Positions 11,807 to 64,000 of a stretch of 64,000 nt of DNA are shown here, one piece after another. Origin of the DNA: Azolla caroliniana (taxonomy: Eukaryota > Plantae > Polypodiophyta). The translations under genes and the position numbers were made by a program. Where the stretch lies: NCBI GenBank assembly GCA_043228905.1, contig JBHGNT010000004.1:4774001-4838000 (forward strand). The letters run 5' to 3'. Below the pieces are notes generated by a model. That model was not told where the DNA came from. It was given only the letters and a program-made list of their open reading frames with translations, and did not search any database. Position 1 is the stretch's first letter. Each line of letters opens with the position of its first letter.

Positions 11807-14800
11807 TCACGATGAGTCATGACTAGGCCTTGAATGTGGTGGTGGGGTGTGAGTGTGAATGCTCTCTTTATTGAGCTCATAGCCTAATACATCATTTAAC
11901 TTCCTTCTTTTATTGTTACAATCATGCAAAGGCTCCTCTTGCAACTCTTTAGACTCTTCATGGTCATTGTCATCATCATCATCATCATCATCATTTATAA
12001 TCACATTAGCAATATCTTCGAGTTTTTTGGAGGTTCTATCTGTAGTTTCTTGTTGGGCTTCTTCATTAATATCTCCTGAAGTTGTGCTTTGGCTCTTTGA
12101 TAATTTCCAGCCTCTAGAGCAAATCCGTTTATATAAATCAACTGATTTTAGGGTTGTTGGAGGATGCTGCAAACAAACACAATTTTGCTTTTTTCTTCCA
12201 CTCAAACATTATGATCAATATATGTGCCAATTATATCATTATATTTGACAAAAATCTTGGATATACACACACAAAAGAAGAAGATGAAGGTGCTTTGCAT
12301 TATCTAATGGTTGAATATGGTTGCTCTGAATCTCCTTATGTATATTGTATTGCAACAAAATGGCATGTGTGTCCATGTATGTATGTACATACAGGTATTT
12401 TATGAACCTAAAGTTTGCATGTATTTGTATGTGTACATATGCGTATTAGATTTTTTATTTTTATAACCTGCATTGAAGGAAGTCCATGCACAAGATGATC
12501 CATTTCTTGTTGAAGCTTGAGAACTTCTGATCTTATTTGAGCTTCTGTTAGCTCTTCCATCCCTGCTCCTTGCCCAACAGCTATAGTATGCTCCAATCCA
12601 TTAATTGTGCTCTCTAAGCTCCTCACCTAATATAAATACATACATACATATCCAACCTAATATAAATATACGTACATATCCATATAGTTTTTTCTTCATT
12701 GTAGAATGTAGTATAATTTTGGTCCATGGTATAATAACACAAACAAGGGAAAAATGCTAAGGAAATATATGTACCAAAATACCCCTACCGTTGTTGGGTA
12801 TTTCGTACTAGGATACCTTGTTGTGATACAACTGTTACACAAGGGTATTCTATACACATTGTATCGTCAATATTTTTGAAAGTTAAGGGAATTATGGTAA
12901 ATATGCCCCAAAACAAATGCATAACCACATCTTGGTTACCTTTCGTCCTGGCCATCGTTTAAGTCCAAATTTCCGACAAGCTTTCTTTAGGGTTGTTTGA
13001 GAAACACCAAGTTTTTTGGCAGCATCCACAACACTGAGATGAAAGTAGGAGGATAACTCAGACATCTTCAATCGATGAGTTCCCCGTCCCTAGTATATAG
13101 AAGAATGCAATACAATTTCAAATAGGGGATAGTATATTATATGTCATCATTAAGATTATAAAATCAAAAGTTGTGTTAAGAAAACTATATACAGATATGA
13201 GATTAGGATGGTCTTTAAATGCATGCATTCTCACTTCGTACGACTGATCAAACAACTCAAATTGAAGCAAAAAAAAGGACAAGGAAACTATGTCTTCAGA
13301 CTAGAAATATCAAATATAATATTTTTGGGCCTCGACATACTTTGAAACATACTGAGCACATTGGCACATATTCATGGACATGTTTCTTTAAATGCATTTG
13401 TTGCTTATTGTAACAAATTACAATCTATATGACTCATGAGCCAACAAATATAACAATAATCAATTTAATAGAAATATAGCTATCATTATACAAAGTTCAA
13501 ACAAGTCTGATTATTGTCTATTCTAGCCCACAACACTTAAAACCTATCATATTATCTCTTTAGTGCTTTAAACATTTGGGTTGGACCTTCTAAAAACTAA
13601 AAATCACATGCATGAGGATGCACATACAATTTGGATATAGATTCATGGTGGGGACGAACAATTGGAAATTAATGTGCTCTACATAAAAATCATACACACA
13701 CACACACACACACAAATGGAGTTTGGAAATATAGGCACATGGATGACTAGTGGTGAAAACTAGTGGGCTATAACTCTCAACAAACACACACTACTGGCTA
13801 TAACTAGGTATAGGAATATAAAAGACAAAATGGGGTGACTAGTGCCTATTAACTAGATAACACACACATGATGTGTCTCAAACATATAGAATGAATAATA
13901 TGGGTGACTAGGTCATAGAAGCTAGTTGGCTATAACTTGGAACACACACACACACATTGTGTCTCTACATATAGAGACATCCATGGCACCATGCATTAAT
14001 ATTATATATCATGAGCTTACATGTGAATGTTGGCAAGAAGCTTACGGTCTTGCTTCTCCTGTTGACGAGAAACACCATCTCCGGCACTTGCGAATTAGTG
14101 TCGAGATTAGGATGAGCATCGATGGCGGATGATGAAGATTGGTCCTTTTCGGACCGATAACATTCAATGCCAGAGTGAGCATGCTCCATGTGATCATTAG
14201 AAGTCACATTTTCGACTCCACCAGAGTTAGGTCCATTATGATTCATCATATAGGTGTTGTCTTGATAAGCTCGTTCGTTATGGCCGAGGAAAAGATCGGG
14301 TCGATCCTTATAATCATCGGCCGAGGTATGCATGTCCTGCGATGAAACATGATGCGACGGATTCCTCAAGTTCGCATTGAGAGGTCGATGAGGGTTAATA
14401 TGCATAGTTGGAATGTTGGTATAGAATTTCTCAATTGTGTCATTCACCATGGCCGAGGTGATAAATGGAGTAGCAGAAGTGCTTTGGTTGCCTATACATG
14501 CATCACTAGGCATAAAAGCACCTAATTGGGAAGCCAAGATCTGAGCCAATATAGTAGCAATATTTGGGTTGTTAAATTTGGAGAGCATATTGCTAGGCAT
14601 GATATTGTTTGGTGCAATATTGTTGTGGGTTTGTTGTACATTATTGCAACTAATGTCATGATCATGGATGAAGTTGTGTGGTGGTTGAGCTGAATTAATA
14701 CTACCCAAATTGAAGAACACATTGTTGTTACTGTTGTTTAAGCCTTGATTCCTTTGCATTGGGCATGGCATTGAAGCATTATTGTTGACACACAACATTG

Positions 14801-16207
14801 GAGATACATTTTCTGTGGTAGGGTTAATAAGATTCTCTCGCGGTATCGAAGATGGTTTGGCATATGAATTGGGGCTAAATAATATCTCCCCATGATTCAA
14901 CTGGTTAGAATGTCCAAAGCATTGTGTAAGATTCGCGGGGCTAGCACCTCCAGTCGTATGATCCTCAATATCCGCATCTGAATCGACAGGCTTAGGGATC
15001 GTGATCATCGCGAGGTTTTTGGGTCGTTTGAAAGCACTACCGGCGGTAGTGATAAGATTTGAAGCTGATAGACCAAAATCTTTCGTCGGAGAAGGCGGCG
15101 GCTGATCGCAGCTAATAATCGATTCACGTGGAGGATGACTAGGTTCAGGTGGAAGGGAGATATGGTGCTCATAGGTGGTGGTAGTTAATATGGTTAATTC
15201 ACTAGGTGGAGGCTTGGTGGGGGTTGAACATACAAGAGAAGGTTTTACAGTTATACAACTACACTTATGGTCGGAGACATGTTGGAGCAAGTGTTCTCGG
15301 GACGAAGGGGCAGGGGTCGGGGTAGCGAGGCTAAAGCTACAATTCACAAGTTGTTGTTGTTGTTGGTTGTGTTGAGATTGTGGATTGTGAATGTGATCGG
15401 AGGCGGAAGATACTAGGGTTAAATTGCTAGGGGGTTTCCAAGTGACATTGTTGTATGGATTTGAACTAGGGGCAAGGTCTACTAGATTTGGGCTTAGTAT
15501 AACTGCCACAAGCTGCTTGTTCCCTTTGCATATCAACACATCTTCGAGGGTCGCGTCCACATCTAGCTCTTCGGGCTCGCTCCCATCCGCTCTCGCCAGC
15601 TGCAACCTCTCCACCCGATCCTTCTCCCCGATGAATCCCAATCTCCGTCCGTTCTTCTATTATGTTATCGACATTCGTACAAGAAACACATATTAAAACA
15701 ATGTCAGAAAAGAAAGGCTCTATAACCAATTGAATCTACTTTGCATCTATATATCTATATATATATATATATGTATGTATGTATGTATATATGTTATCGA
15801 CATATAATCGAAGGCAAATCTAATTTGAAAAAAAACACCAAGGTGTCGAGAATTTCGGAAGATAAATCGTCAATTTGCACTGAGGACAGTCGGAATTCCG
15901 AAAAACCTTTTTTTTTAAAAGAAAAGAAGAATCTAAAAATGAAGAGATATATGTATGAATCATTGTGGTGCATCTATTGAATCCCCAAAATTTGTGTGTT
16001 AAAAAGGAGGAATTTGATTGCAGATCTGAATCCAGAATTTTCATTTTGTAAAGACGGTCTCCTTTTTTAATGATTGAGCCAGACCTCGATGATTCGGGCG
16101 AATTCTTGAAGGGTTTCATGAAGATGGCGAGCAGAGCTCCAATGGTGACCTTTGACAAACACGGTGAACTTTGCCTTAACATGGTCTGTGTGGGCGTGCA
16201 GAGCCAT
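11807..16207 (-). CDS. RWP-RK domain transcription factor (non-NLP, RKD/MID-like), ~800 aa, 5 exons
   Basis: Exons 16207-16085, 15656-14046, 13089-12940, 12626-12468, 12166-11807, all phase 0. Exon 3 encodes LKMSELSSYFHLSVVDAAKKLGVSQTTLKKACRKFGLKRWPGRK and continues VRSL in exon 4. The first and last exons are less certain. Confidence 0.85.
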
Positions 16208-18514: not shown

Positions 18515-21500
18515 CTATTTCACATGCATGTTGCCTAATGTATAGTTTCCAATATTGAAGTTCCCTTCTGGTTGACTTACTACTGCAGCTTGTGCCTGAA
18601 GAAAAATACAAATAACTTGTGTTAGTGACCAGAAGAAAGAAGTATTTAAATGCCTATTCAAGAGCTCAAAGCAAGCCATCCATCCATTACATGCAAAACC
18701 ACAATGTGAAGTTTCAATTTATACATCATTAAAATATTGACTTTTTCGTCCATAACCACAAATTATTTGCTCATTGATTTATGAAAGCTCGCGCTTTGCA
18801 ATATGGTGGGGTTCAAGTCTCGTACAAAAGGTCGGGATGTTGAGTCCATTTAAGGAAAAACTTTTCATTATTCTAGATATCATTCACACCATGAATAGTT
18901 TTATGCTCCTTTGAGAGGCAATGTTAGCAAAAGAAAAAGAAAATGATGAGAGCATACCTGTTTCGTGTATGAAATTAGTGTATCATCCAACATTCCGGTG
19001 CATGCTTTTGTACTAAGAGGAGTGTCTTTAAGCCTGAACTTACTATCTCTTATGCACTGATCTAGTGATCTGTTGTTATAAAGCCCACTCTCCTGGAATC
19101 CCTGCATCAACTGCGGTGGTTGTCCTGATAAACATCCTGCCTTAAATGATTGTCCATAATCTTGATTGAAATGAGAGCTTGATTCCAACTCACTTTTCGG
19201 CCCTAAATTTGGATTGTTCTGAATAAGGCTATGCCAAACTTGCAAGCTATTTAGAGTTGCATTTGGATTAGAAACTAATACACCAGTATTATTACCAGGT
19301 TGTATAATAGAAGCATTTGTATTCCTACTTCCACCCACATCCAAAGTCTCATTGAGAATAGGGGTCTTTACAATTGCATCACTAGCAAGAGATGTAGACC
19401 CATAAGGAATATCAAGACTTCCGAAATTATCGACCGCAGGCCTTCTCATAGAATTAGGACTATTAGCAGATAAGATGAATTCATTATGTTCTGGTCGGAC
19501 ATCAAAAAATGCCCCAACGCCCCTGCCTTCCTGGAGCTTTGGCCTAATTTCGGTAGAAGTCATCGGTAGCCCAATACTTGCATTAGCTTGTTGCTGTAAA
19601 ATTTGGGCCACCAATGCATCATTACTATTGTTCTCAATAGGCAAGCAGCTATCAAGGGTACTAAAAATTGGGTCTAACCCTCCCATGTTTGGTAAAGATG
19701 TTAAACGATGCAACTCTACTGGACTGGAAGATAATGTACTGTTTCCAGATTGCCCAAATGACCCAGATTGCCTTATCCCCACCTGGTTGATGTGATACCC
19801 ACTTGAAATAGTATTTGATAGGGGTAATCCATAAGGTGACCTTGTGGCTATAGCACCAGTATTTGCTCCGTGAACTGCAGCTAGCTGCCGTAATGTATAC
19901 AAATCTAATCCAGGGGGGGTGCTAAGAACTGATCTATCTATAGAACCAGATGGCAAAGATGACTTCGATGATACAAAATCACCAAAACTAGATCCAGCAA
20001 TCCCAAAAGATGGATCTGGTGAACCTAGCATTGTTGAGCCCAGACCCCCAATTTGACGATGATGAGGCACTTCACTGATTCGTTTCAGATATAATCGATA
20101 TTTCTGAAAGGAAACAAATAAAACATCAAATCGGACAACATGATATCGCATGATAGTAACAGGGCAATACAAGACGTTGTGACATATGTAATAGTAGGTC
20201 AGTATCGGAGACGGACACATAAAAGTAAGTATTCATGCATGGAGTCTCAATACCAACCTGTAAATGGCTTGCAACATTTTCCCTTGTAAGCCCACGAACA
20301 TCCATAAGCTCAAGGACTCTCTTCGGGACAGCCTCTGTAAAAAATAAGCAAACTAGATGAGCATGCTTCTATAGAATTAATGAAGTCCAAAACAAACACA
20401 CATGGCATCGTTTATAAAGCATCAAAGATGTTGCGTTCATATTATCAAGTGTATTTGGAGACACCAAACTTACTATCAATGCCAAGTTGGTTCACTGCAG
20501 TTACAAACTTCTGATGCAACTCAACCGACCAGACGACACGTGGCTTCTTTGATGTCGATGGATCATCATTATCAAGTTCAGCATCATCATCGTCCTCTTT
20601 CCTCTTCTTCGAATGCCTTGATGAAGCAGCATCAGGTCCATCACTTGAATGGTACTCACCACCACCATCATTAAGCTGCTGATCTTCAACATTATCACTC
20701 ACTGCCCCTTCTCTCTTCTTCCTCCTCACAACATGCTGCCAGATGTTCTTCAATTCCTCAATCCGCACAGGTTTTAGAAGATAATCGCAAGCACCATGCT
20801 TGATTCCCTTCATAACAGCACTTGTCTCCCCGTTCGCTGACATCACTGGACAGAAGTCGATTTAAATCATAGATGCACAGAAGCAGTCTATTAGAAAATT
20901 CAGACCAATGCAAATTACATTAATAAAACATGGCATATGGGAGAGCCTGATCAATGGATCTAGTTTCTACTTAAAATTGAAAGAGAAAAGAGCTTCAATT
21001 CAATGCCGACTTTGTTAAGCCCCCACAAAATGGGAGAACCTGATCCACGTATTTTGCTTCAAACAACAACAATTGAAAGGGATACAAGGATTCAATTCAA
21101 TGTCAATTACCCAAATAACTATATCAAATGCTATAAATCTTTCTCCCAACAACATGATCATTTAAAGAAAAAAGATCCTCAATTTGATGCATATAACCAT
21201 TACTAATGATCCAATGTACACAACTTCAAACAAGACACTAATTTGACAAGAAAGGGCTTCAACAAATTCGATGCCAATTATATTAACGATCCTGCCAGAT
21301 GGGAGGGCGTGATTCATGTATCTGTTTGAAACAAGAAGTTTAATTTAAAGAGAAAAGAGCTGAAGAGCTTACTTATAACAGGAAGATCCATTTCCAGTCC
21401 AACAAGCTCAAGCAACTTGAAACCATCCATATCAGGCATATGCACATCACTGATGACCACATCAAATCCATCTTTGTTTTCTCTCAGAACCCTGAGAGCC

Positions 21501-45000: not shown

Positions 45001-47258
45001 ACACATGATCCCTTCCACCAGATCTTTGCCATGCTGGCTGACTCGTGACCCACTTCAATGCCTCCTGTAGAATAGAGTATTATTAATTCATAGATTATGG
45101 TGCATTGGATAAAAGATTCTCCGATATGTTAGATTATCCACAAACTCAGAATACTGAGCCCAGCAAACATATATGACCAAGCAAAACTTTCAAACATTTA
45201 AAACCGAAAACCAAACGTCATTGTTGTACAAACCCTCAGAAACATTGGACCTAACAAACATATGAATTTCCTTTGAATAATATTCGAGCATCTAAACCGA
45301 AATTATTGCCTCATATTTTACAAGAATGTGAGAATAATCGGTCAAACAGCTATTCAATTTCCATCAAAGGATTGAAACAACAAAACACTGAAAAAAACTT
45401 GGATCTCCACAAATCATCCCATCTTTTAATGGATTCATGATAATTATCCAAAACCTCACAATAATAGGCTAAGAAAATGTATGAGTTTCCTTCCAAAAAT
45501 ACATCTAAACAAAAATGGGGAATTTTGGTACATCCTGAGATCATTATTCAGCAGCACCTCAGATAAATGGGCCACGAAAATGCATAACTTTCCTTCCATA
45601 ACAATACATAAAACATCTAAAGCCAAAAGTAGAAGAAACCTTAGCTATCTGTGTATCAAAATTATCCTTCATTATTCTCCAAAGCCTCACAATCTGAATA
45701 CTATTCATTGTACCAGCAAGCAAGTAAATTGAATCTCCATCAAACGATAATGATTTGAAACAGCTAAAACCAGAACAAAAGTATATTGTCCATTCTAATA
45801 GCCAACAAATGCATTGAAATTTCTTCTAATGATAATGATTCAAACATCTAAAACCAGAAAGGAATAAACCTTGGACCTCGGTGTATTAGTCATTCTAACA
45901 GAAAGTAGACGCATTGAAGTTCTTTCTAGTGATGATGGTTAAAGATTGCATCTAATCTCTTTCTAATGATCGTGATTCAAACATGTAAACAAAAGAGGCT
46001 GGATACGTGCATATCATCCATTCTAACAGCAAACAAATGCAATGATTTTCTTCCAATAATATAGATTCAAGCATCCAAAACTGATAATAATAATAATAAA
46101 AACCTTGAAACAGACGCCCACACCCTGTATAGAAGACTCCGCTGTGGCTTTTCAAGCAGAAAGAAGCTGATGGTTGTGAAAAAAGGAATGTAGAATATAT
46201 CCGCCTCTTCTTCGTCAAATACTTGGACCACAGTCTTTACAAGCCTTTCAGACTCTGGAGCAAGTAGATCAGCCCATAGCCAGTAATCAACTGAATGCTG
46301 TGAGCGATGAAACATAGAGAAGATCAATACAAGCAATTTTAATGCACATAAGAAGAAGAATTAGAAACCATTTGAAGAATTTTTAGCAGTAGAAGAAGAA
46401 AATAGACCCCAAAGAATGTAAGGATGAAGAAGAAGAATTTGGATCCTGTGTATACTTAGCCACCCTTTAAGAATCACACAGCGCACAAGAAAACAATGAT
46501 AAAGTCTGTCCACTTATCAGTTCAATCAGCCGTAAGAAGAATACTGTACATTTACCAGCTCAACAAAAAGAAGAAGTGGAAGAAGAAGAAGAAGAAAACG
46601 AGGATGTTCATTTTTTATCTGTTCAATAAGAAATATGAAACAGAAGCGGAAGCATATGGGAGAAGAAAGACGAACGAACATTTACCTGCTCAATAAGGCG
46701 ATGAATGGGGCTTCCATTTGATGTTGCGTTCACTGTGTCTTTCAAAGTCTCATGAAAAAGCCGCAAAAGATCAAACGTGAATTTGCTCGGCATATCATAA
46801 ACATAAACTCTAAGCCGATTCTCCTTCTTCTCTTTGTAAAGATCGTTCAATTCTCTTCTTCCAACTGCATTATCAAGCTCTTTCGCAGAAACAGAAACAG
46901 CAAACAAATCTACTTCTTCCTCATTATCAGACGCGATCTTCCCGTCAATAACCACAGATCTCGATGATGCTGTTTTCTTAAACGAAGATAAATCTTTCCT
47001 TTGTTTGTTCAAGAAAGCCTCGAGAGAGGTCACAAACGATCTCTCTATCGAAGGAGGGGGGGAAGCCCTAGACCGCGCAAAAGAGAAGGAAGAGGAGAGG
47101 AAGAGGTTAGAGTTGATGGAGGCGAGGAGAGAGGAAGCGGCGAGCAAGACGAAGAAAAGAGAGATGAGAAGAACGAGAAAGATAGGAATGAGGGAGAGGG
47201 GCAAGGATTTACTGGTGTGATTACCACAACTGTTTCTGGAGCTGCTTCTGGGCGCCAT
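42066..47258 (-). CDS. GT47/exostosin family glycosyltransferase (ARAD1-like), ~9 exons
   Basis: Type II membrane anchor ([19 protein letters not shown]); motifs [76 protein letters not shown], terminal CTCDC. Exons start 47258-46686, 46297-46124, 45064-... Confidence 0.93.
43787..44168. mobile_element. Probable solo LTR (382 bp) in a GT47 intron
   Basis: Begins TG and ends CA; flanked by 5-bp direct repeats CCACA (43782-43786, 44169-44173); more GC-rich than the host intron; internal TATA-like run. Confidence 0.5.
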
Positions 47259-49680
47259 AGCCAGACAGCAGCAGAAGCAGCAGTAACAGGAACAGGAACA
47301 GTAGCAGTAACAGTTGCAGCTCAAGCTCAAGCTCAAGCTTCACTCTTCTTCTTCTTCTTCTTCTTCTTCTTCTTCTTTCTTCTTCGTCTCTGTGTGTCTG
47401 AGAGTGTCAGTGTCGGTGTGAAATGTGAATTATTTTGGGTCTCGTTTCACACTGTGCCTCAGAATCTAGCAATCGGGCGGTTTCACACTGGGCCTGTGTT
47501 TGTCCGGACAGGACATCGCACTGTCGCAGGAGCTTCGACTCCCTCCTAGCACACGCACCCACCCAGCCACCCAACCAACCCACCATGTGATGTGTAGATT
47601 TTGATTTATGCATCTGTATGTATGTATTGTAATGGATATGTATAACACTCCGAAACACTTGTTTGTGTGTTTGGTTCGGTTTCTAAAGCTCATCCCCTTC
47701 TACGAAAAAATGTAAATGCCTTTTGTGACCCTTCCACCATGTCCTTAGTTCTCGTGGAAAAACATGGTTATGGCTATCCAATAACTCGTGGTCTCTTTCG
47801 CATCGGCAAATGGGTATTATTCATGTGCTGATGCTTACTAATGCGTGGTTCCCACTTGATCAATCAAAGAGAAATATAACTTCATCGTTTCATTTGCAAC
47901 ATATGGTGGGGAATTAGAAACGATGATCAAAGCATGTATACGCAAAACTAGTGCATCTCTTTTTTAGAGATTTCTGGGAACAAGGTTTGGAGACATCTTT
48001 GGGTAGATTCCAAGCATTCCTATCAAGCAACGATTATTTCCTTCAATCAACAAGATTTGAGCGCTTTGGACCATCTAGAATTGCATAAAGTTAGCTTCTT
48101 CAAGCAATCCGATAGACAATCTCTGTTGAATTGTCGACTCCTCGAGGATATCCCACTTCAAACTTTTATTTTTTACTTCGAGTGCATGTAAGGACTTTCA
48201 TGTCAAAATGACGCCTTTTAGAATCCTCTTTATTTTTCATGGGTATTGACCTCATGTTTAGGTTTTACCACTAGTATTATAAGCATTACTAAAAAAAGGA
48301 TGCTAGTTAGATAAGACCCCTAACTTTTTTGACTCAATAGATAAACCATCTAAGAGGGCAAGCCAAGGAGCAAACCTCTTGACAAGTTTGTTTCATCCCA
48401 TAGATCCAATGGGTATCACTCCTACTTTGATGTGTCTCCATGTTGTGATAAGCAAGGTCAATATATTCATTTACTAGAAATTCCATATGCTTTACTAACA
48501 ATAACATCTCTTTTCATAAAAAGGACTTTCAACGGTGATCAAACATCCTTTATATTTGCCAATGCTCATTAAAAGTGTCAATTCAATTACTATGGGCTTT
48601 GCCATGATTTTATCATTTGCCAAAGACATCAAAGACGTGGGAGATTATTAACAACTAATTTAGTCGATAACTATTACCAAGTCTTGGTGATGTGTTCATA
48701 ACCTATTGCTTCAATAAGCTAGGAAAACTATTTAGTATAGTTGGGGAAGTAATTAAAGCATTGCAATGTAACCAATTTGCTAACCATACAACAAACCCTA
48801 ATTAACACATGAAACTTCACAATCCATACTCTTTGCTATCATACTTGCAAGGTTACTTTAATAATCATGAATTTTACATCTTTTGGCATTAACAATGGCA
48901 AACATAACATTATTCCACAGTATGGCAAGCACATAATACTTGGCATTGTTTTGCTGATCTTTGAGTTGTTATGGTTTTCCATTTTATAAATGTTTGCATT
49001 AATTTTATTCTTTGTATATAATTATTGGTCAAAGCCTTACAAATAAACATGAGACTGTAGTTTGGTTACTAGAAGTATTTCAAGGATCACAAATGTTAAA
49101 GCCCAACAGCTTCACATTTTTTTTAAATCCAAAGAACTATAACTGTACATGTAGCAATCATATACATAAAAACAAATGTTTGACATGTATGATGATGGCT
49201 TGGAGAAGAAATCAATAAAAAGATCATACAAGCTTGTAATAATTCACTATCTATTTGACAGATCCAATTTAAAAGATCAGGGTATTTCTTCAAAATTTTG
49301 GGTGATTTTTCAACAATTCAAGGGCAAATTACAAACTCGCTGGTTGGAAATGTGATCATCTGTCATTCTTGTTATTCATATGAAGCAGTAATTCATGTAA
49401 ATAAATATTGTAAGCCATAAATGTAATTATTCACATACGATGCATGAAGGGGCCTAATTTATGCAGCAGTGCAGATCCCACAACAAACAACTTCCGTTGC
49501 TAGAATAAAGCATTAGCAGACATGTAAGCACTGCGTCTGTCAAGATAGAACACACCATACTGTTTGCAACAAAAAAACCCATTGGGTAGCTTACTCAATA
49601 AGAAATAGGTTACAAGTTTTAAATTTAAAATACTCAAACACCTACACATACAGATAATTGGCAAATATATATATATATAT

Positions 49681-53826: not shown

Positions 53827-56800
53827 ATGGTAGCAAAACTACAAATCCCCCATGTGTATGTGTAGGTAGACTATGTTCCTTGCCGAGAGGGCCCACTACT
53901 ACAAACCTCTCCGCCACAATAAGGATCCATGTTCGTGTGGCAGAGGATTTGCTCGCAGCTAGAGATGTAGGATGAGCTTGTGTTCCTTCGCATTGGCTTT
54001 GTTGGTTTCCTGTGATGGAAACCCATGGCGTGTCATTGGCTAGATATGTGTGAGCTAACAGTTTCATGCCTGAATTTTTTCCTAAAGAACCCATTATATC
54101 CAACGATTGCATCAACATGCACCACACATAATATCAAGCCCATTGTCTTCTTTTTTATACCCCTTCATTCGTGGTTATGTTCAACCCCTTGGGTTGAACT
54201 TGTTTGTTGTACGGATTTCACTACTATAGCCTTGCAATTTCATAGAGGATTCAAATATTCACAAACGATACTCTTGTGTTCCCTCTCTTTTTATGTTGCT
54301 TGTGGGGGTGATCTCATAAATGTAATGCATACCTTGAACTACCAAAGTCTATGAGGGATTTCCTTTAAGCATTAACAATGTTACATACCCTAAAGTTTCC
54401 CTCTAATATATAGATAGATAGATAGACATAAGTATAGCCTATAGGTATATATGGGTTTAGTACAACATTTTAGTTCAATAGTTGTATGAACCATGACCAA
54501 CAAGGTCTAGTTTAGCATTGTTATAACTTATATATTAGAATCTAGACATGTTGATTTTATTTTGGAAGGTTTTCTTTCATATTTATGTGGTTCTTGCATT
54601 ATTGGCTGATTTTGTCTTGCTCTAACAATTTTAACACAATGTCTCATCAATAATTTTAACATCTTCACATAGCTTTGGTTGGCATCACATAGACATTAAG
54701 GAGTTGGTAGCATTTTCATAGTTTCTCTACCTTACACTAGAGATGATTTAGTAAAATCCTTGTTCACTATTCTCCGTTTTCTATGGAGTAAGACTTGTTG
54801 CATCAAGATGAATGATACACACAATAGTACTTCTGCATGGATAGATATTGTAAAATTGAGTGTCTATCTTCTAAATGGAAGTTTTATTGTGTAAATTTGT
54901 TAAATATTACACAACTATATGCAAGTATGTGCCTAAATCTTAGCTGTAAAGAATACATTCCAAATGTGAGATATTACATTATAAGAAATACATATGTTCA
55001 TAATGATTTATAATCTTATGAATGACTACTAAGATTTTGATTTTGACTCTTATTTAGAAGAGTATGATCTGGTTTCTTTCATGATCGTGTCATGTGTAAT
55101 AGGATAAGATCAAGTGAAAAAAGGTAGAATACATGAATATGTTATGATGTTGTGTTGAAATGATGGCAGTTGGTGTGATGAGATAGGGTGAGACATATAA
55201 TTATGAATATAATGTGATAAGATCATTTATGATACAATTTACTATGACATAAGGTGACATGAAGATGTGATTTCCATCAGGACAAGATCTTTCGGATCAC
55301 TTGTAAAAGGATGTGTTGACCTCATCATTTAAAGTATGATAACATGAGAACACAATGAATGTAGTGTGATGATTGATCGTGGTATTCCACAAATATCTCA
55401 ATTTTTTTGGTGATTAATTATGAATAGAGTGCGCATTTCTTGACTTGTGTGGTCTAATTTCTTAACGGAGGTTCATGCAAAAAGTTACTATTGAAAGTTG
55501 CGAAGCATAAACGAAATTTCCCTTAGGCTCATTAAAATTAAACATGCATGAACAAAATTTCCTTTAGGCACATTAATTCTTCATATAAATGAGGGTCTCC
55601 TATATGACGACACTCTTAAATAATTTGTGATTTTGAGGTTTTCATGAGCTTTCTCTATGCTCAAGGAAACAACATATAAAGATAACTTCAAACAATAGTC
55701 AAATAATGTACACAACACTAACTGCAAATTTATCTTTATCAATAGTGCAGATTTTGTTGACTACATCTACAATTATTCCATGCCTTAAATCTAGAGTAAG
55801 ATTATGTGGATGAAGTAGGGAGATTTACCAAAATTTGGATTGGCACTTGTCTTTCTCTTGTATTTAAAATCAAATCACTTGAATGATAGTCAATGAATTA
55901 ACTGTCATGCTTATTTAAGGTCCAATAAATTTTGAAGAACCCATGGGTTTCTACTATTTGAGGTGGGAGGCTTTAGCTATTAGCAATGTAACTCGGAATT
56001 CAAATTGTCTTGGATCAAGCATGAGATTCATGACATGTTACAAGATATGCTAGGTTGATATAACCCCTTCAAAGTCTTTGGATCTACGAGTTGGTAGCTC
56101 GGCTCTCAACTCCACAATGGTTAGAAAAGTTGAAATATTTTTTTCATCATTTCATGAGCATAGCCTCAAATATATTCTTTCAAAAAATGAGGCACCTTTA
56201 TTTGGTTTACATGTCTTCTAATTATTTGTAGAAATCAAAATACCATTTGATAACTCTCTTTCGGCCCAACTACAAATGAGGGGGGAATTCATCATAAACA
56301 AACATTTTTTGTTATTCGTGGTGATATTTCTTAACAAGCCTAAACTTATCATAAACCTATCCATTACGAGGGAAACAATATGACAAATGAAGCATATACG
56401 TTGTTGAAAGAGAAGCTAAATCAACTCTCCAAAAAGTGAAGGTAATATGAGGGTTCTATCCATTCTTGTTGAATCGTTTGAAAGGAAGAGGAGTTTGTTT
56501 TCTTAAAGTCTTCTCTAAAGGGCTATAAATGACAGTTACAACTTACAACCAAGACATTAACTTATCCAATTCCTCACTTGACAAAATCGGAAAAGGCAAT
56601 TTGACCTTTCAAACATCCCTTCTTCTATGTAGGCAACCATAACGGCGACCTATATTCCTTCATATATATCATTAATAAATAGAAAAGAGAGGTTTCAGGT
56701 TTTAGACATGATTCTAGGGATCATCACAAGGATACAATCTTCAACACAATTGCTAGTGCTTTGTTATGGAGCATTTGGAAGGGTTGGAGTTCCAAGTCCT

Positions 56801-57217
56801 TGGGGGTGAACATGACAATACTTTGAAACTTTGACATTTATTTGGCGAAGTTAGTTGCACCATTTGGTTTTTCCTAGGGAACCCTAGAAATTAGGGATGC
56901 TTTCCTTAAAGCTTGGAAGCATTGTTGCCTTTCTTTAATTTTGGAATAAATAATATATTACATGGAGACATACAACACCATTTTAGTTCATTTAACGTTG
57001 TGTTCCTATGTGGTATAGCTGGGTTTCTTGGCTACACCATTGTATATACTATGCTTCACACTTCCCTTGTATATACATAGCATGACAACTCCAAAGCATA
57101 TTTTAACAAATGTAATATTCAACCCATATTTTCTTAGTGAAGAAGAATCTGATACACCCTACATTGCAATTGTACCTATGTTTCATGTTAATATATATTT
57201 ACATATTAAGTTCCTAT

Positions 57218-60200
57218 TTACTTATAATGAGGGACAATAGAGTGATCACAAATCATTTTCATTTTATAGTGGTGGCCACTAAAGTTAGTTAGTTCACCTA
57301 GCACATATTTTCTATTACATCTACTGTTTTGCACCCTCGACATTTGAAAGGTAATAGTTTCCATCTCTTCATATATGTCTTTACTTCGAGAATGTTTTGC
57401 ATTCTCTAACCTTGCATTAAACCACAGATTATTTCCTTGCTTCACCAAAGCATCATAATTTAGACTCAAAGGATCAATATTTCCTGCCTCTTTTTGAATA
57501 CCCAGATTTGCACTAACATTCGCCATAAGAGCATAGGCTGAATCACAACCCTTTTTTAATTTTATTGCTTGATCAAAAACCAAATTTGCAAGTTTCAAAT
57601 TTCCCCATTTTCTACAAGCACTCAATAGTGCAAGCCAAAGAACATCATAATCACAAGGAGGTATCATCTGAGCAAGTAACATTGCCTTGTCAAAATGGCC
57701 TATAAATCCAAGAAAAGACGCAATGCAATTACGGTGCTCAACACTTGGACTGATACCATATTTACTTGTCATACTCTCGAAAAGAGAATTTCCCTCATCC
57801 CATAAACCCGTGCGAGAACACGCAGTAAGTATACAAAGGAAAGTGACATTATTCGGATCAATTCCTTCACTTTGCATCCTTTCAAAACATTTCAGTGCTT
57901 CATAACCTTTCCCTTGGTGAGCATAACCAGCAATTAATGAAGACCAAGATACTATGTTTCTAAAAGGAAGTTCTTCAAGCACATATTGTGCTAAGGCAAG
58001 CATACCGCATTTTGCATACATGTCTACTAAAGCACCACCAAGTACTATATCTTTATCTAATAAACCCCTTCTCAATATGTCACCATGAATTTGTTTGCCA
58101 GTGTTTATTGCCCCTGTGCTACCACACGCTTTTAAGATGCAAATTAGTGTGACTTCATCTGAAGAAAAGCCCTTGTTTTGCATCTTCTTGAAACAAAACA
58201 ATGCTTCATGACAGAGCTCTTGTTGTACAAACCCTGTAATTAGTGCATTCCAAGACACTACATCTTGAACATGCAGATCTTCTAGCACCTTTTGTGCCTT
58301 TTCCGGGAACCCACATTTGGCATACATATCCACCAAAGCATTGCCAAGCACAGTGTCATTCTCTAATAACCCCTTACTCAAAATCTCATCATGAATTTGT
58401 TTGCCTGTGTCTAGGGCTCCTGCACTTCCACAAGCTTTCAAGATGCAAGTATAAGTGATGGTGCTTGCATAGTGTCCCTGTCTTTGCATCTGTTCAAAAC
58501 AGGTCAATGCATCAAGGCATTGCCCTTGCTCCACATATCCTGCAATTAGAGCATTCCAAGTGGCTTCATTACAAGCAACGAGTTCTCCAAGTACTTCTTG
58601 TGCTTTCCCAAGCATACCACATTTGGCATACATATCTACCAAAGCAGTCCCTAGTGCAATATCCTTATCCAACAACCCCTCATCCACAACCTCATCATGA
58701 ATTAGTTTCCCTTCGTTTATAGCTCGTGTGTAGCCACAAGCTTTTAGAATGCAAATGAAGGTAACCACATCAGGTGAGAGACCACAGCTTCGCATTTGTT
58801 TAAAACATAAAAGTGCTTCATGACATTGCCCCTTGTGTGCATATCCTGAGATTAGTGCAGACCAAGAGACCACATCTTGAACAGGAAGCTCTTCAAACAC
58901 ATCTTTTGCTTTTCCGAGCATACCACATTTAGCATACATGCCTACCAAAGCACTCCCAAGTAGACTATCCTTCCCTAACACGCCCTTACTCAAGATTTCA
59001 TGATGAATCAATTTCCCATTGTCTATAGCTCCAATGTTCCCACAAGCTTTAATTATACAAAGATATGTTGACAAATTTGGAGAGAGGCCATCTCTTTGCA
59101 TTTGTTGAAGACAGTTCAGTGCCTCATGGCATTGCCCCTGTTGAACATACCCTGCCATTAGTGCATTCCAAGAGAGTGTGTTTCTAATAGGAATCTCCGC
59201 GAGCACCTTCTGTGCTTTTCCGAACGCACCACATTTAGCATACATATCAACCAAAGCATTACCAAGGACAATATCGTTCTTCAACAAGCCCATGGTAGTA
59301 ATCTCCTCATGAATTTGCTTTCCTTTATCTATAGCCCCTATGCTACCACATGCCTTCAGAATGCACGTGAATGTAATAGAATTTGGGCTAATTTCTTCAC
59401 TTAGCATTTGATCGAAACAAAGTAATGCCTCATGGCAGCGTCCACATTCAGCATAACCTGCAATCAACGTTGACCAAGAGACTACATCTCGGACTGGAAG
59501 TTCTATAAAAACCTTGTGGGCTTTCTCAAGCACTCCACATCGAGTATACATATCCACTAAAACATTACCTAGTATAATGTTCCTTTCCAATAAGCCTTTA
59601 CTCACAATCTCTTCATGAATTTTCTCCCCCTTGTGTATAGAGCCAGTGTGGCCACATGCCTTCAAAACACAAGAAAAAGCGACAACATCTGGCGAGATCC
59701 CTTCATTTTGCATTTGTTCAAAACAGATCAATGCTGTGTGATCTTGACCATGTTGAGAATAGCCTGAGATTAGAGCAGACCAAGAGACTACATCACGAAA
59801 AGGAAGCTCATCGAGCACTTCTTGAGCTTTCAGAATCATACCACATCTAGCATACATACTAATCAAAGCACTAGCTATAAAAGGGTTATTTCCCAGTATC
59901 TTCTTTTTCAGAAGTTGATTATGTAATCTGGTGCCTTCACATATATCCTTCTTTCTTGCACATGCCTTGAGTACGGCCATCACAGTGAAATCTTGCTTAT
60001 GACTTCCATTCCTATTAATCTCCTTACATTGCTCTGTAGCTAAAAATGCTCTTCTTCTTCTGAGATCTTCATGAAGCCAATGGGGATTATATAACCCATC
60101 AATCCACAAAGATTCACGAGTCATGGTGTTTCTAAAATCAGGAGATTTGGATGTACTCTGGATGAAAAGAGAAAGTAAAAAAGAAAATTTATCAACACGC

Positions 60201-60415
60201 AGACATATACACACGTTCTGAAGAAAAAACGAAAAATAAAGAGCTACTGCATGCAAATCTCTCTCTTTCTCATCATTATCATCATCGCTTACCTTGGTGT
60301 TACGATTGTCATACCACTGTGTAGGATTTGTGAAGAAGTCTTTCCATAAGAGATGCGTCTTTGTAGAGGAGCCACTAGATTTCTTCAATCCCCGCATAAG
60401 CTCTTGGGGCAGCAT
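57218..60415 (-). CDS. PLS-class pentatricopeptide repeat protein (PDF motif + PLS array + E1/E2 + degenerate DYW remnant), ~1020 aa spliced
   Basis: Exons 60415-60293 and 60157-57218, with a 135-nt in-frame intron (AAG|GTAAGC..TCCAG). Contains L-S, six ~102-aa P-L-S triplets, P2-L2-S2, and E motifs (LWLALLSACRKWGN; AYALMANV). Confidence 0.93.
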   Translation of the reverse strand: MLPQELMRGLKKSSGSSTKTHLLWKDFFTNPTQWYDNRNTKVSDDDNDEKERDLHAVALYFSFFLQNVCICLRVDKFSFLLSLFIQSTSKSPDFRNTMTRESLWIDGLYNPHWLHEDLRRRRAFLATEQCKEINRNGSHKQDFTVMAVLKACARKKDICEGTRLHNQLLKKKILGNNPFIASALISMYARCGMILKAQEVLDELPFRDVVSWSALISGYSQHGQDHTALICFEQMQNEGISPDVVAFSCVLKACGHTGSIHKGEKIHEEIVSKGLLERNIILGNVLVDMYTRCGVLEKAHKVFIELPVRDVVSWSTLIAGYAECGRCHEALLCFDQMLSEEISPNSITFTCILKACGSIGAIDKGKQIHEEITTMGLLKNDIVLGNALVDMYAKCGAFGKAQKVLAEIPIRNTLSWNALMAGYVQQGQCHEALNCLQQMQRDGLSPNLSTYLCIIKACGNIGAIDNGKLIHHEILSKGVLGKDSLLGSALVGMYAKCGMLGKAKDVFEELPVQDVVSWSALISGYAHKGQCHEALLCFKQMRSCGLSPDVVTFICILKACGYTRAINEGKLIHDEVVDEGLLDKDIALGTALVDMYAKCGMLGKAQEVLGELVACNEATWNALIAGYVEQGQCLDALTCFEQMQRQGHYASTITYTCILKACGSAGALDTGKQIHDEILSKGLLENDTVLGNALVDMYAKCGFPEKAQKVLEDLHVQDVVSWNALITGFVQQELCHEALFCFKKMQNKGFSSDEVTLICILKACGSTGAINTGKQIHGDILRRGLLDKDIVLGGALVDMYAKCGMLALAQYVLEELPFRNIVSWSSLIAGYAHQGKGYEALKCFERMQSEGIDPNNVTFLCILTACSRTGLWDEGNSLFESMTSKYGISPSVEHRNCIASFLGFIGHFDKAMLLAQMIPPCDYDVLWLALLSACRKWGNLKLANLVFDQAIKLKKGCDSAYALMANVSANLGIQKEAGNIDPLSLNYDALVKQGNNLWFNARLENAKHSRSKDIYEEMETITFQMSRVQNSRCNRKYVLGELTNFSGHHYKMKMICDHSIVPHYK

Positions 60416-60684
60416 TAATTTCTTCTTCTTCTTCTTCTTCTGCTTCTTGTTTCCATGTTAGAGCTGTAGCTTATAGCAGTAAAGAAGACATGCTTGGTAG
60501 TTTCCACATCCTATTTCCCTCCTCAAGTCTTGGGTTCAAATCTCACTTGACCTCTCTCTACCCACAAAAACGTATCACTCACTCCATAATAACGTCTCTC
60601 TATCAAATCTATACATATGTATATGATATACATATATGTATCTATAATCAATTAATCACCTTCTCTGTCTTTGCCATCTCTTGA

Positions 60685-63492
60685 GTGTACACATCCCGCG
60701 ACCTTTACCAACCAACGCCTCTGGACCATTGCGTATTCCCACGTGTCATTGGTGTCCCCAGTAGTAGGCGGACCGAGACCCTTGGACCATTGTGTGTTCC
60801 CATGTGTCATTGGGCTCCATGTGGGCTTGTCCCAATAGTAGGTGGACCAAGACCCTTGGATCATGGCCTGTTCCAATGTGTCATTGTGCTCCATGTGGGC
60901 TTGTCCCAGTAGTAGGTGGACGGAGACCCTTGGACCATTGCGTGTTCCCACTTGTCATTGGGCTCCATGTGGATTCCAGCCACAAGAAGAAGGCTCACCG
61001 AGTGCGTGTGAACAAGAGAGTGCACGAATGCACATGAATGAAGTCTTGTGTATAACCAATTGTAAATATCGAAGTATTAATAAGTACAAGGTAGAGTATT
61101 TTAATAGGTACTTTTATGATTCCACAAAAAGAGGAGGATGTTAGCGTGTGATGGCAGAAAATCGTGAGGGAATCTCTAACAAAAGCGACCTATGTAATAA
61201 CAGCCAGATGTAACGTCGACCCTCTCGCTCCTTGGAGCTATAAAAGGGAGGGAAAGTGTATGTTGTAGGGGGATCGATCATTTTCAGGAGGGGGAGGTGT
61301 TGTCGGTTTGTGAAGTCGAGTATTGCAAGTTTCCTGTTTTGCTCAGTCAGTTAGTGGGTGTGAGGCCTCTACTCGCGAAAGAAGCTCATGTGCTCCCGAC
61401 TAGAGGCTCACCAGTCGGAGTGTTTGCTGAGCTCGAAGCTCTATTTCCTAGCCCAAGGCCAACCTTGTATTCTTTCACAATATTTAATCGATTACTCGAT
61501 ATTGTTGTGTCCAATGTGTTGTGTGTGCATCAGTTTGTTCTGGTCTATCTGGTTGTGTTCACAATTCTCTCTTTGTCTTCTGTGTCCAGGAAGGTGTTAT
61601 CTATTCCCTCATATGTTTTGCACATACCACCTAAGCCTATGAGCCTGTGAGCTCATATTTTGGAATCCGGCAATAGGGCCGGATTGGATGTCGTTCTACG
61701 AGCTCGTGTGCTCAATAAAGGACTCCGGAAATCGAGCCGGATAGGTCACCGCAAGCTTAGTAGCCACTCATTCTTAGGCTCCTTGGTCCTAGACCCCGAT
61801 GGTCCCACCCAACCCGACCCGGCCCGCAAGCCGCGGATTTCCGCGACTTCTTTGGTGAATCCGACATGAAAGGAATGAGGGGAGACGAGCTAGCAGAGGC
61901 CATGGCGGCGGCTGTTGACTGCCTTGTGAATGCCAGGGAGAGCTCAGTTGGCCTTGACAAGGCCATCAAAACTGTCGTCAGCACGATAGGCCAATTCAGC
62001 AAACGGGACGTCATGAGTTACTTGGAGGCCTTCAAGGCCGAAATGTTGATGAGGAACATTCCGGACGACACTCGATTGTCCGGATTTGCCTGAGTTGCCA
62101 CACCAAGCATCCACGTCGAGCTGCTCGAGATTCATGCCGACTGTCGTAATTGATCGGAGTTCGAGGATCGGCTCCTCGAAAGGTACAACTTTCAATGACT
62201 CGCTTCAGTTGTCAAAGAAGGAGTTCATGGAGTGGGTCGAACTCCAAGGAAAGGGCCGGAATACGACAACACCTCTCCACAAATTCGAGAAGCGATTTTC
62301 ACAACTCTTGGTGTTGGATTGGACCATGCTCAATACGGGCAAAGTCCTATTATTCATCAAGTCGGTCGACTCGCGTGATCGTGAGAAGGTAGGTCTCCTC
62401 CTAAAGACGGACGATGGCCTTACGACCGACTAGGCCGTAGTCAAATGGGTATTCATTTGTTTCGATAAACGACGTGAATCGAATGATGAGAGGATGTCAT
62501 CGACATGCCCGACCACCAGAGGGATAATGGGCGAGGTGTCGACTCGATCAGACGAAGATGGTGTGGAACCTCCAGATTGCTCAAGCTCGGAGGGATGCCA
62601 GGGGTCAATAGCTTTAGATGCATGTGGTGCGGCGGTGTCGACCACATTCGAAGGGACTACGCCGATTTCACAGAGGTGTTGAGGAACATCGTCGTTTACC
62701 TATTGAATGGCCGCGCGCATGCTAGCGAAACACGGAAGCCCCTCAAGATGAACATTGGACGAGGCAACATGAAGAGGATAATGGAGGAGGCAATGATGTG
62801 ACGCGTCGAAGCCATCCACTACTCGACATCGGCAGGTATCCGGGTTGGAGGATATAAGAGCGTCGGGATGGGGAGCAACACCGGATTCTGGCCGATGGTG
62901 TTGGAAAGCTTCTCTAGGAAGAAGCTTACGAAGGAAGAGGCGGACCGCACAGAGAGACGGGTCTGAGAGGTCATCGGTGAAGAGAAAACCAACTTCGTAG
63001 AAGCTGCATGCCAGAACTTCGAGGTTCTGGTAGATGACAAGCAGGTCGGAAAGGCCGGAGGGGCGGACCCCTCAGGCAAATACAATACCCGGGATGAGCC
63101 AAAGGGGAGAGGGCGTGGTCCGATCGACCCACAAGGAAAGGGAACGGAAAATTTTTGGAGCTTCCGGTTGAGCTCGAAAATAGAGAAGTCAACATACCTA
63201 CGAAAGGTCATGGAGGAGCGAATCCTCGACAGTCAGGTGGAATTCACACTGCGAGAAGTGTTGGGCATTGCTAAGAAAGAATTCAAAGATATGATCATCG
63301 ACTATGTGAAGAGGAAGCGGCTCTCAACGGAGCTAGAAAAGCGATAAACCGGACAAGGTGAAGACAATACACATCGATGAAGTGGTGGGGGAAGAGGAGT
63401 ATGCCAATAGCCACTACATGCGACTGCATTGAGCAAGGGCAACAATAGAGAGTCCGGTCTGGATAGGAGATGTGAAGAAGGAGCCGGTGTCG
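60685..63492 (+). mobile_element. Degenerate Ty3/Gypsy LTR retrotransposon (putative LTR ~60.7-61.65 kb; broken gag from 61866)
   Basis: LTR-like region with TATAAAAG at ~61239; gag-like frames interrupted by stops; decayed zinc knuckle RCMWCGGVDHIRRDY; pre-protease segment H*ARATIESPVWIGDVKKEPV. The 5' boundary is uncertain. Confidence 0.7.
60720..60972. repeat. Degenerate tandem repeat (~60-75 bp unit), probably inside an LTR
   Basis: ggaccattg..tgtcattgg..gtccca.tagtagg.ggac..agaccctt recurs about 4 times. Confidence 0.75.
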
Positions 63493-64000
63493 TGAGGATT
63501 TTTGGTCATGGTGAGAAAACCCGAGCAGGAGGAATAAAACAAGATGTGCAACATTGCACGTGAACTTAGGAAAATTGTAACATAGGAATAATAGACAAAT
63601 GTAAGGAGGAAAAGTAAGATGTAAAGGTATAAAGGTGATGTGCACTTTGTAGACTAGAGGTAGGCACATGAAGTATGGGTGTAGGGAGTAGTGGGCATTG
63701 AGTATGTCGGTGAGAGGAGAGGGAGTTAAGACCCATCAATCTCACCTCCCTAGATAACGTATCAGCCTATGCAAGGATAAAGAGCAAGGGCGGTTGGAAC
63801 TCCGTTCACATCTTGACAGTTCGGATGAACCACGAGTGTAACAAGGACTCTCTCGGCGGAGAAGGCCGAGAGGATTTTTGAAGAGGGCTATAAAGGTGTG
63901 GGGAGGCGATAGTCCGGACATCCATCCGAAACCCCACACTTGTACCATAGGTAGGAATTTTTGGCTCTCCGAGAATGGAGGTTGTATTGTAACCATCATC
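63493..64000. mobile_element. Probable LTR of a second element nested in the Gypsy copy (runs off the window)
   Basis: Coding similarity stops abruptly before the expected protease motif; new sequence starts with TG, is purine-rich, and has TATAAA at ~63889. Confidence 0.45.

What the first reader, a model, noticed from the sequence alone, without database searches (positions are those of the whole stretch)
60070..60350. OSB-type PDF ssDNA-binding motif fused to the N-terminus of a PLS-PPR editing-factor scaffold
Seen in sequence: after splicing, the N-terminus reads LWKDFFTNPTQWYDNRNTK|STSKSPDFRNTMTRESLWIDGLYNPHWL, directly before the PLS array. Established: this matches the PDF motif (W..FF.NP..WWDNR..K.....PDFK......LW.....P.WV) of plant organellar ssDNA-binding OSB proteins, where it is normally C-terminal to an OB fold; canonical angiosperm PLS-PPRs do not carry it. 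Inference: a chimeric protein joining ssDNA binding to sequence-specific RNA recognition, which could tether editing or processing to nucleoids or R-loops co-transcriptionally. It may be a lineage-wide family rather than unique to this gene.
Basis: partly seen in the sequence, partly recalled or inferred. Interest (0 to 1): 0.85.

Follow-up and report, generated by a model that had tools for sequence, protein, structure and literature searches.

The report
Fern PPR protein with OSB module
This spliced gene, likely from a fern, encodes an RNA-editing-type repeat protein that starts with the small "PDF" module of organelle single-stranded-DNA-binding proteins, a pairing shared by many fern, clubmoss, moss and liverwort proteins, where the module likely helps grip single-stranded targets.

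Summary
Confirmed. A 135-nt GT-AG intron (60158-60292) splits a 54-residue motif; contigs of 3 of 4 runs skip exactly this intron. The spliced motif scores 70 bits against a profile of OSB-type PDF copies (best of 1000 shuffles 9.8), and a profile of fern PPR-borne copies retrieves proteins named OSB1, OSB2 and OSB3. It is an inherited family member, not a one-off fusion: 69 of 100 hits carry PDF before a PPR array; the 62 with organism names are ferns, a clubmoss, mosses and a liverwort, none a seed plant. This copy has 23 PPR motifs, E1/E2 and a DYW remnant without the catalytic glutamate, so it is predicted to be non-catalytic. Function is untested. Most likely PDF adds sequence-independent grip on single-stranded nucleic acid; nucleoid tethering is one rival. 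Ten literature searches showed no description, but a newer Pfam family (PF30937) covers the domain, and the founding OSB paper could not be read. This scan noted the same architecture before in mosses and a liverwort.

The parts
60353..60397 (-). Start codon shared with relatives (60397-60395) and 15-residue leader (4 K/R, no D/E, Ser/Thr-rich); organelle targeting not tested. A second in-frame ATG at 60415 exists in the window allele only
   Evidence: (loose end at 60398: 8 extra bases in 3 contigs)
60293..60352 (-). PDF motif, first half (residues 16-35; helix, then W-x-D-x-R and the conserved K)
60158..60292 (-). 135-nt phase-0 GT-AG intron, open in frame (45 codons)
   Evidence: skipped exactly in contigs of 3 of 4 runs; modelled at pLDDT under 50 when read through
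60056..60157 (-). PDF motif, second half (residues 36-69; PDF, LW, P-x-W, final helix)
59996..60055 (-). Linker of about 20 residues, variable in length and sequence across the family, partly low confidence in the model
57653..59995 (-). PLS-class PPR array: L1, six S1-P1-L1 triplets of 102 residues, then S1-P2-L2-S2 (23 motifs; subtype labels assigned by eye from the layout)
   Evidence: Pfam PPR families E down to 1e-105; layout
57434..57652 (-). E1 and E2 motifs; E2 degenerate
   Evidence: Pfam E_motif E 0.13, below cut-off; 70.6 bits for the C-terminus against a profile of 31 DYW-ending proteins
57218..57433 (-). Degenerate start of a DYW domain, ending a few residues after the His of the HxE site, with no Glu and no CxxC; stop at 57220-57218
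   Evidence: no further DYW piece in six frames of 54001-57500; low pLDDT

Best explanation
The gene encodes a PLS-class PPR protein with an N-terminal OSB-type PDF domain and no catalytic DYW site; it likely acts as an organelle RNA-targeting factor whose PDF domain would add sequence-independent grip on single-stranded nucleic acid. Shown: spliced exon junction, PDF homology, array layout, missing catalytic residues, family spread. Inferred: import into an organelle; the PPR array reads a specific RNA (established for the family); the flexibly linked PDF domain sits at the 5' side of the bound RNA and holds neighbouring single strands, raising affinity or keeping the site open, a job that MORF cofactors help with in seed plants; any C-to-U editing needs a DYW partner in trans. 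The architecture is inherited from an ancestral PDF-PLS(-DYW) gene of seed-free plants.
For: The window copy keeps all the columns that are at least 85% conserved in both PPR-borne and non-PPR copies (W5, P12, W15, D17, R19, K22, P28, D29, F30, L39, W40, P47, W49). 5 of 7 changes within the motif among relatives are synonymous (expected share 0.19-0.25, binomial p 0.004-0.014), against 15 of 16 listed changes non-synonymous in the E2/DYW tail of run X13 (Fisher p 0.003 pooled, 0.013 for X13 alone). The domain folds on its own (pLDDT 94) and both halves are confident in the window's own model. PDF lies before the array in 69 of 69 fusion hits, in 1-3 copies; 18 of 69 end in CxCxD(Y/F)W. The window copy nests in a fern PPR-borne clade (100/98). 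Reviews state that the OSB PDF motif suffices for ssDNA binding (PMC6963530 passages). Fern PLS proteins mostly lack DYW and are proposed to work in trans, and accessory factors are described as absent in seed-free plants (PMC13263110 passages); MORFs are placed in gymnosperms and angiosperms (PMC13386178 passages).
Against: No binding, localisation or target was tested. OSB1 and OSB2 prefer ssDNA over RNA (PMC4166229 passage), which argues against an RNA-flank role. The window copy has lost two residues common in PPR-borne copies (H32 91%, K33 87%). 11 of 120 listed PPR relatives carry only partial or eroded motifs at i-E under 0.01, against 6 complete ones; some are truncated gene models, others look decayed, so the module is often dispensable. 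The leader is only 15 residues, so import cleavage could clip the motif. The substitution counts are small, and the tail counts come from a table cut to 40 of 464 rows. One paper reports MORFs in two ferns (PMC12561531, listing and abstract start only), and one search lists ORRM and OZ1-like factors in ferns.
Confidence: 0.45

Rival explanations
1. DNA tether: PDF binds ssDNA in organelle nucleoids (transcription bubbles, R-loops) and holds the PPR factor near nascent transcripts for co-transcriptional editing or processing.
For: OSB proteins prefer ssDNA to RNA and the PPR-borne copies keep the OSB core residues. OSB1 is linked to R-loop control (PMC13393729 background).
Against: No localisation data. 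By the established polarity of PPR binding (recalled), the N-terminus lies at the 5' side of the bound RNA, away from the polymerase, on a linker of about 20 residues. Most fusions have a single PDF (56 of 69), while OSB2 binds as a tetramer.
Confidence: 0.25
2. Passenger: one ancient fusion was copied along during the expansion of PLS genes; PDF does little in most copies, or is clipped with the targeting peptide.
For: Partial or eroded motifs in 11 of 120 relatives; short leaders in fern copies and loss of H32/K33 here; most PPR relatives listed have no motif (102 of 120 without any hit).
Against: Core residues are conserved from liverwort and moss to ferns; synonymous bias inside the motif while the tail drifts; clubmoss copies have duplicated the motif up to three times; the motif holds 7 acidic residues, unlike a transit peptide.
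Confidence: 0.18
3. Protein docking module: PDF links non-catalytic PLS factors to a DYW donor, to OSB, or to other nucleoid proteins, solving the shortage of DYW domains in ferns.
For: PDF occurs on both DYW-ending (18 of 69) and truncated proteins; trans assembly is proposed for ferns; this copy lacks a catalytic site.
Against: The only activity reported for PDF in the passages read is ssDNA binding. Known DYW recruitment runs through C-terminal E motifs (recalled).
Confidence: 0.12

Closest known systems
[quoted passage not shown] 2006, known here only through passages of PMC6963530, PMC4166229, PMC6451138, PMC13393729)
   Same: The same roughly 50-residue PDF domain: 70 bits to an OSB-type profile; proteins named OSB1/2/3 retrieved by the fern profile at E 2e-60 to 3e-15; same predicted fold and Pfam label PF30937 on an SSB cluster and on PPR clusters.
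   Different: No OB/SSB domain; PDF is N-terminal rather than C-terminal and precedes a 23-motif PPR array.
PLS-class E/E+ PPR editing specificity factors (for example Arabidopsis CRR4, which uses DYW1 in trans; PMC13263110 passage)
   Same: P1-L1-S1 triplets, P2-L2-S2, E1-E2 and a truncated, non-catalytic DYW start.
   Different: An extra folded N-terminal domain; not seen in 13 of 13 named angiosperm PLS proteins checked.
Fern DYW:PG-type C-to-U factors (closest PDF: Adiantum capillus-veneris GOP47_0019224, P0036)
   Same: PDF 58% identical; the window tail aligns with the PG-box-like region of P0036 rather than a KP box (by eye).
   Different: P0036 ends in a full DYW domain with HSE and CxxC; the window protein does not.
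Other PPR fusions with accessory domains (RRM-PPR, MORF-PPR, RanBP2-Znf-PPR; PMC13386178 passages)
   Same: An accessory nucleic-acid or cofactor domain joined to a PPR array.
   Different: Those are mostly RRM-P fusions in angiosperms or rare cases; the main text of that survey has no mention of PDF or OSB.

Membership tests
PDF domain (as in OSB) | Profile match over the whole ~50-residue motif | tested here: met
   70.1 bits, profile positions 3-57 of 60; shuffles at most 9.8
PDF domain (as in OSB) | Conserved W, DxR, K, PDF, LW, PxW residues | tested here: met
   All 13 core columns kept; W16, H32, K33, V50 differ from the family majority
PDF domain (as in OSB) | Binds single-stranded DNA | not testable with these tools
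   Needs EMSA or similar
OSB protein family | OB/SSB-like domain N-terminal to PDF | tested here: not met
   Only 15 residues precede the motif; no SSB family in Pfam scan. It is not an OSB protein
OSB protein family | PDF motifs at the C-terminus | tested here: not met
   PDF is N-terminal here and in 69 of 69 PPR-bearing hits
PLS-class PPR | Repeating P-L-S triplets ending in P2-L2-S2 | tested here: met
   Six 102-residue triplets plus terminal set; Pfam PPR
PLS-class PPR, E subgroup | E1 and E2 motifs after S2 | tested here: met
   C-terminus aligns to profile positions 1-173 of a 240-position S2-E1-E2-DYW profile, 70.6 bits; Pfam E_motif alone is weak, E 0.13; E2 is degenerate
DYW subgroup (catalytic editing enzyme) | HxE(x)nCxxC zinc site and terminal DYW | tested here: not met
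   Stops after the His-Ser with no Glu, no CxxC; nothing further downstream
PLS-class PPR | Organelle import and sequence-specific RNA binding | not testable with these tools
   No targeting predictor and no organelle genome available

The most novel reading that the evidence does not exclude
Seed-free land plants have an undescribed class of RNA-editing factors that carry their own single-strand-binding domain taken from the organelle DNA-maintenance protein OSB in one early fusion, later lost in seed plants as MORF cofactors arose; the domain couples editing factors to nucleoid ssDNA or R-loops, and on catalytic members could bring a cytidine deaminase to organelle DNA.
Probability: 0.2. Interest if true: 0.85.

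Novelty: new variant of a known kind. Interest (0 to 1): 0.6.

Why it matters
Ferns and clubmosses edit very many organelle RNA sites with large PLS families, few DYW domains and, by most accounts, no MORF cofactors; how these factors bind well and find a deaminase is open (PMC13263110 passages). A small, confidently folded domain with no solved structure, placed before the array in many of them, gives a direct test: delete or graft 55 residues in the existing E. coli editing assays. It would also link organelle DNA maintenance to RNA editing and might improve synthetic PPR editors. For annotation, the intron inside the motif hides it: several gene models start in the second half. This particular gene is an ordinary, non-catalytic member of the family.

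Tried and rejected
Word search with the unspliced N-terminus (residues 30-135 of P0001): 39 candidates, none scored; the intron dilutes the words, so this was no evidence. Local Pfam copy has no family for the motif (0 of 7 rows). No solved relative by sequence, Foldseek (best E 3.9) or VIA-align (best Z 2.6); this does not show a new fold. tblastn of a fern PDF against phage records: no match at E 1, so the Atlas's viral look-alikes (TM 0.53-0.73) stay an unconfirmed lead. Two-copy PDF complex: no verdict, score 0.09, alignment not used; no evidence either way. No run is on record as RNA; run X4 laid nothing. No whole genome, so no paralogue census. Recent species-specific fusion: rejected, the motif nests among fern PPR-borne copies. 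Chance match or translated intron: rejected. Downstream DYW exon: none found in 54001-57500, and an X13 contig runs through the stop to 57196. Single origin of all PPR-borne PDFs: not rejected (p-AU 0.395) but not shown; 58 columns, 89 chosen rows. Zaegel et al. 2006 not held. Supplement of PMC13386178 unreadable. Target prediction not attempted: no organelle sequence.

Full report
Observation. The minus strand holds a 1079-codon open frame at 57218-60457. Within it a 135-nt stretch, 60158-60292, begins GTAAGC, is 43% T and ends in a pyrimidine tract plus CAG. Contigs from public runs of near-identical relatives confirm the junction: 3 of 4 runs laid on 59990-60720 (three studies) have one contig each that joins 60157 to 60293, skipping 135 bases with CT..AC ends on the plus strand, and nothing covers the intron; the fourth run laid nothing (first seen). 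The runs are not on record as RNA, but exact intron skipping is what transcript contigs show. All three contigs carry 8 more bases at 60398, so the ATG at 60415 is in frame only in the window; the shared start is 60397, giving 1014 residues with a 15-residue leader. The contigs end near an AAG microsatellite, so a further upstream start in the relatives is not excluded.

Is it a PDF motif? The local Pfam copy has no family for it. A search with residues 36-240 listed 120 of 288 PPR relatives, mostly ferns where named; six Adiantum proteins carry the whole motif near the N-terminus. A profile of these six plus the window row (A1) gave 100 proteins, among them proteins named OSB3 (Chenopodium, Carex), OSB2 (Brachypodium) and OSB1-like (Aristolochia); 12 of the 100 carry Pfam SSB. 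In the other direction, a profile of 44 PDF copies from 20 of the non-PPR hits scores the spliced N-terminus at 70.1 bits, the reversed sequence at 1.2 and the best of 1000 shuffles at 9.8. Those 20 were picked through A1, so independence is partial. The ESM Atlas labels the aligned part of P0036 residues 19-76 as PF30937 in three PPR clusters (127, 63, 57 members) and in an SSB cluster (71 members, TM 0.92). AlphaFold2 folds the P0036 domain at pLDDT 94 as helix, short strands, helix; no solved relative was found. In a model of the window's unspliced frame both halves are confident (blocks at 70-87), while the intron, part of the linker, the leader and much of the tail are under 50.

How widespread? 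69 of the 100 hits carry PPR triplets, always after the PDF, with one (56), two (9) or three (4) full copies; 18 of 69 end in CxCxD(Y/F)W. By source names: Diphasiastrum 32 (some are isoforms of one locus), Adiantum 22 (six are the query's own sources), Ceratopteris 2, Sphagnum 3, Ceratodon 1, Calypogeia 2, unnamed 7; no seed plant, although angiosperm OSBs were found in the same search. None of 13 named angiosperm PPRs has the motif, but most are relatives of one gene, and no gymnosperm or hornwort was identified by name. The exhaustive HMMER search found 1102 representatives at E up to 0.001; of the best 150, 12 have a PPR triplet hit and most others are OSB-like or multi-PDF proteins. Among the 120 relatives, 6 have a full motif, 11 a partial one at i-E under 0.01, one is marginal and 102 have none (shuffle control at most 4.2 bits). 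Several partial ones begin in the second half; P0003 starts with an acceptor-like stretch at the same point as the window's intron end, which suggests a shared intron and truncated gene models (inference). In a tree of 89 chosen PDF copies (58 columns) the window copy lies in a clade of 17 fern PPR-borne copies (100/98); one origin of all 48 PPR-borne rows is not rejected (p-AU 0.395) and not shown.

The rest of the protein. After about 20 linker residues come L1, six S1-P1-L1 triplets of exactly 102 residues and S1-P2-L2-S2, 23 motifs. The C-terminus aligns with a profile of 31 DYW-ending proteins up to the His-Ser of the HxE site and stops without the Glu or CxxC; six-frame search of 54001-57500 shows no further piece. 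It resembles the PG-type box of P0036 rather than a KP box (by eye). Among relatives, 5 of 7 changes inside the motif are synonymous (p 0.004-0.014 against the neutral share), whereas 15 of 16 listed changes in residues 900-986 of run X13 are non-synonymous (Fisher p 0.003 pooled, 0.013 X13 only), and X12 has a one-base insertion at 57559. These counts are small and the tail rows come from a table cut to 40 of 464, but they suggest the PDF is kept while the tail drifts. Against this, the window copy has lost H32 and K33, present in 91% and 87% of PPR-borne rows.

Mechanism. Passages of three papers state that the OSB PDF motif is responsible, and for OSB1 sufficient, for ssDNA binding, and that OSB1 and OSB2 prefer ssDNA to dsDNA or RNA (PMC6963530; PMC6451138; PMC4166229). 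[quoted passage not shown] I infer that PDF gives the PLS factor a built-in, sequence-independent hold on single strands next to its target (0.45). Rivals are a tether to nucleoid ssDNA (0.25), a passenger role (0.18) and protein docking (0.12). None was tested; the complex job gave no verdict.

Novelty. Ten full-text searches gave no paper on PDF-bearing PPR proteins. The 2026 OSB family survey has no occurrence of PPR (PMC13393729; part 1 of 8 and passages read); the 2026 editing-factor survey and the Schizaeaceae paper have no occurrence of PDF or OSB in the main text. Limits: subscription papers are not searched, Zaegel 2006 was not held, one supplement was unreadable, and PF30937 makes the architecture visible in databases. 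Earlier notes of this scan report the same architecture in mosses and a liverwort; they are AI notes, and I tested the family claim myself.

Verdict. Real, spliced and conserved; not an OSB protein and not a catalytic editor, but a fern member of an apparently undescribed PDF-PLS family of seed-free plants. New variant of a known kind; interest 0.6.

Noticed in passing
window 60650-64000: Degenerate retrotransposon-like element just upstream of the gene: 74-nt tandem repeats (three full copies at 60757-60978) and broken gag-like frames with a weak DUF4100 match at 62967-63344 (E 2.9e-05, below cut-off).
   Followed up: partly
window 60399-60457: AAG microsatellite and an 8-base difference from relatives in the 5' region create an extra in-frame ATG at 60415 in the window allele.
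   Followed up: partly
window 18904-20861, minus strand: Exons of a likely type-B response regulator (weak Response_reg and Myb matches).
   Followed up: no
window 46626-47339, minus strand: Likely first exon of an exostosin/GT47 glycosyltransferase (weak Pfam match, E 0.002).
   Followed up: no
window 13968-15656, minus strand: 563-codon open frame with no Pfam match at E 0.01.
   Followed up: no
proteins P0216-P0239 and similar: Proteins with 4-13 PDF stretches and mostly no Pfam domain in those scanned; several have hydrophobic, signal-like leaders (by eye), suggesting PDF arrays outside green plants.
   Followed up: no
ESM Atlas rows 5-8: Phage (Uroviricota) protein clusters of 187-277 residues have predicted folds like the PDF domain (TM 0.53-0.73); no sequence match in phage records. 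Possible phage origin, unconfirmed.
   Followed up: partly
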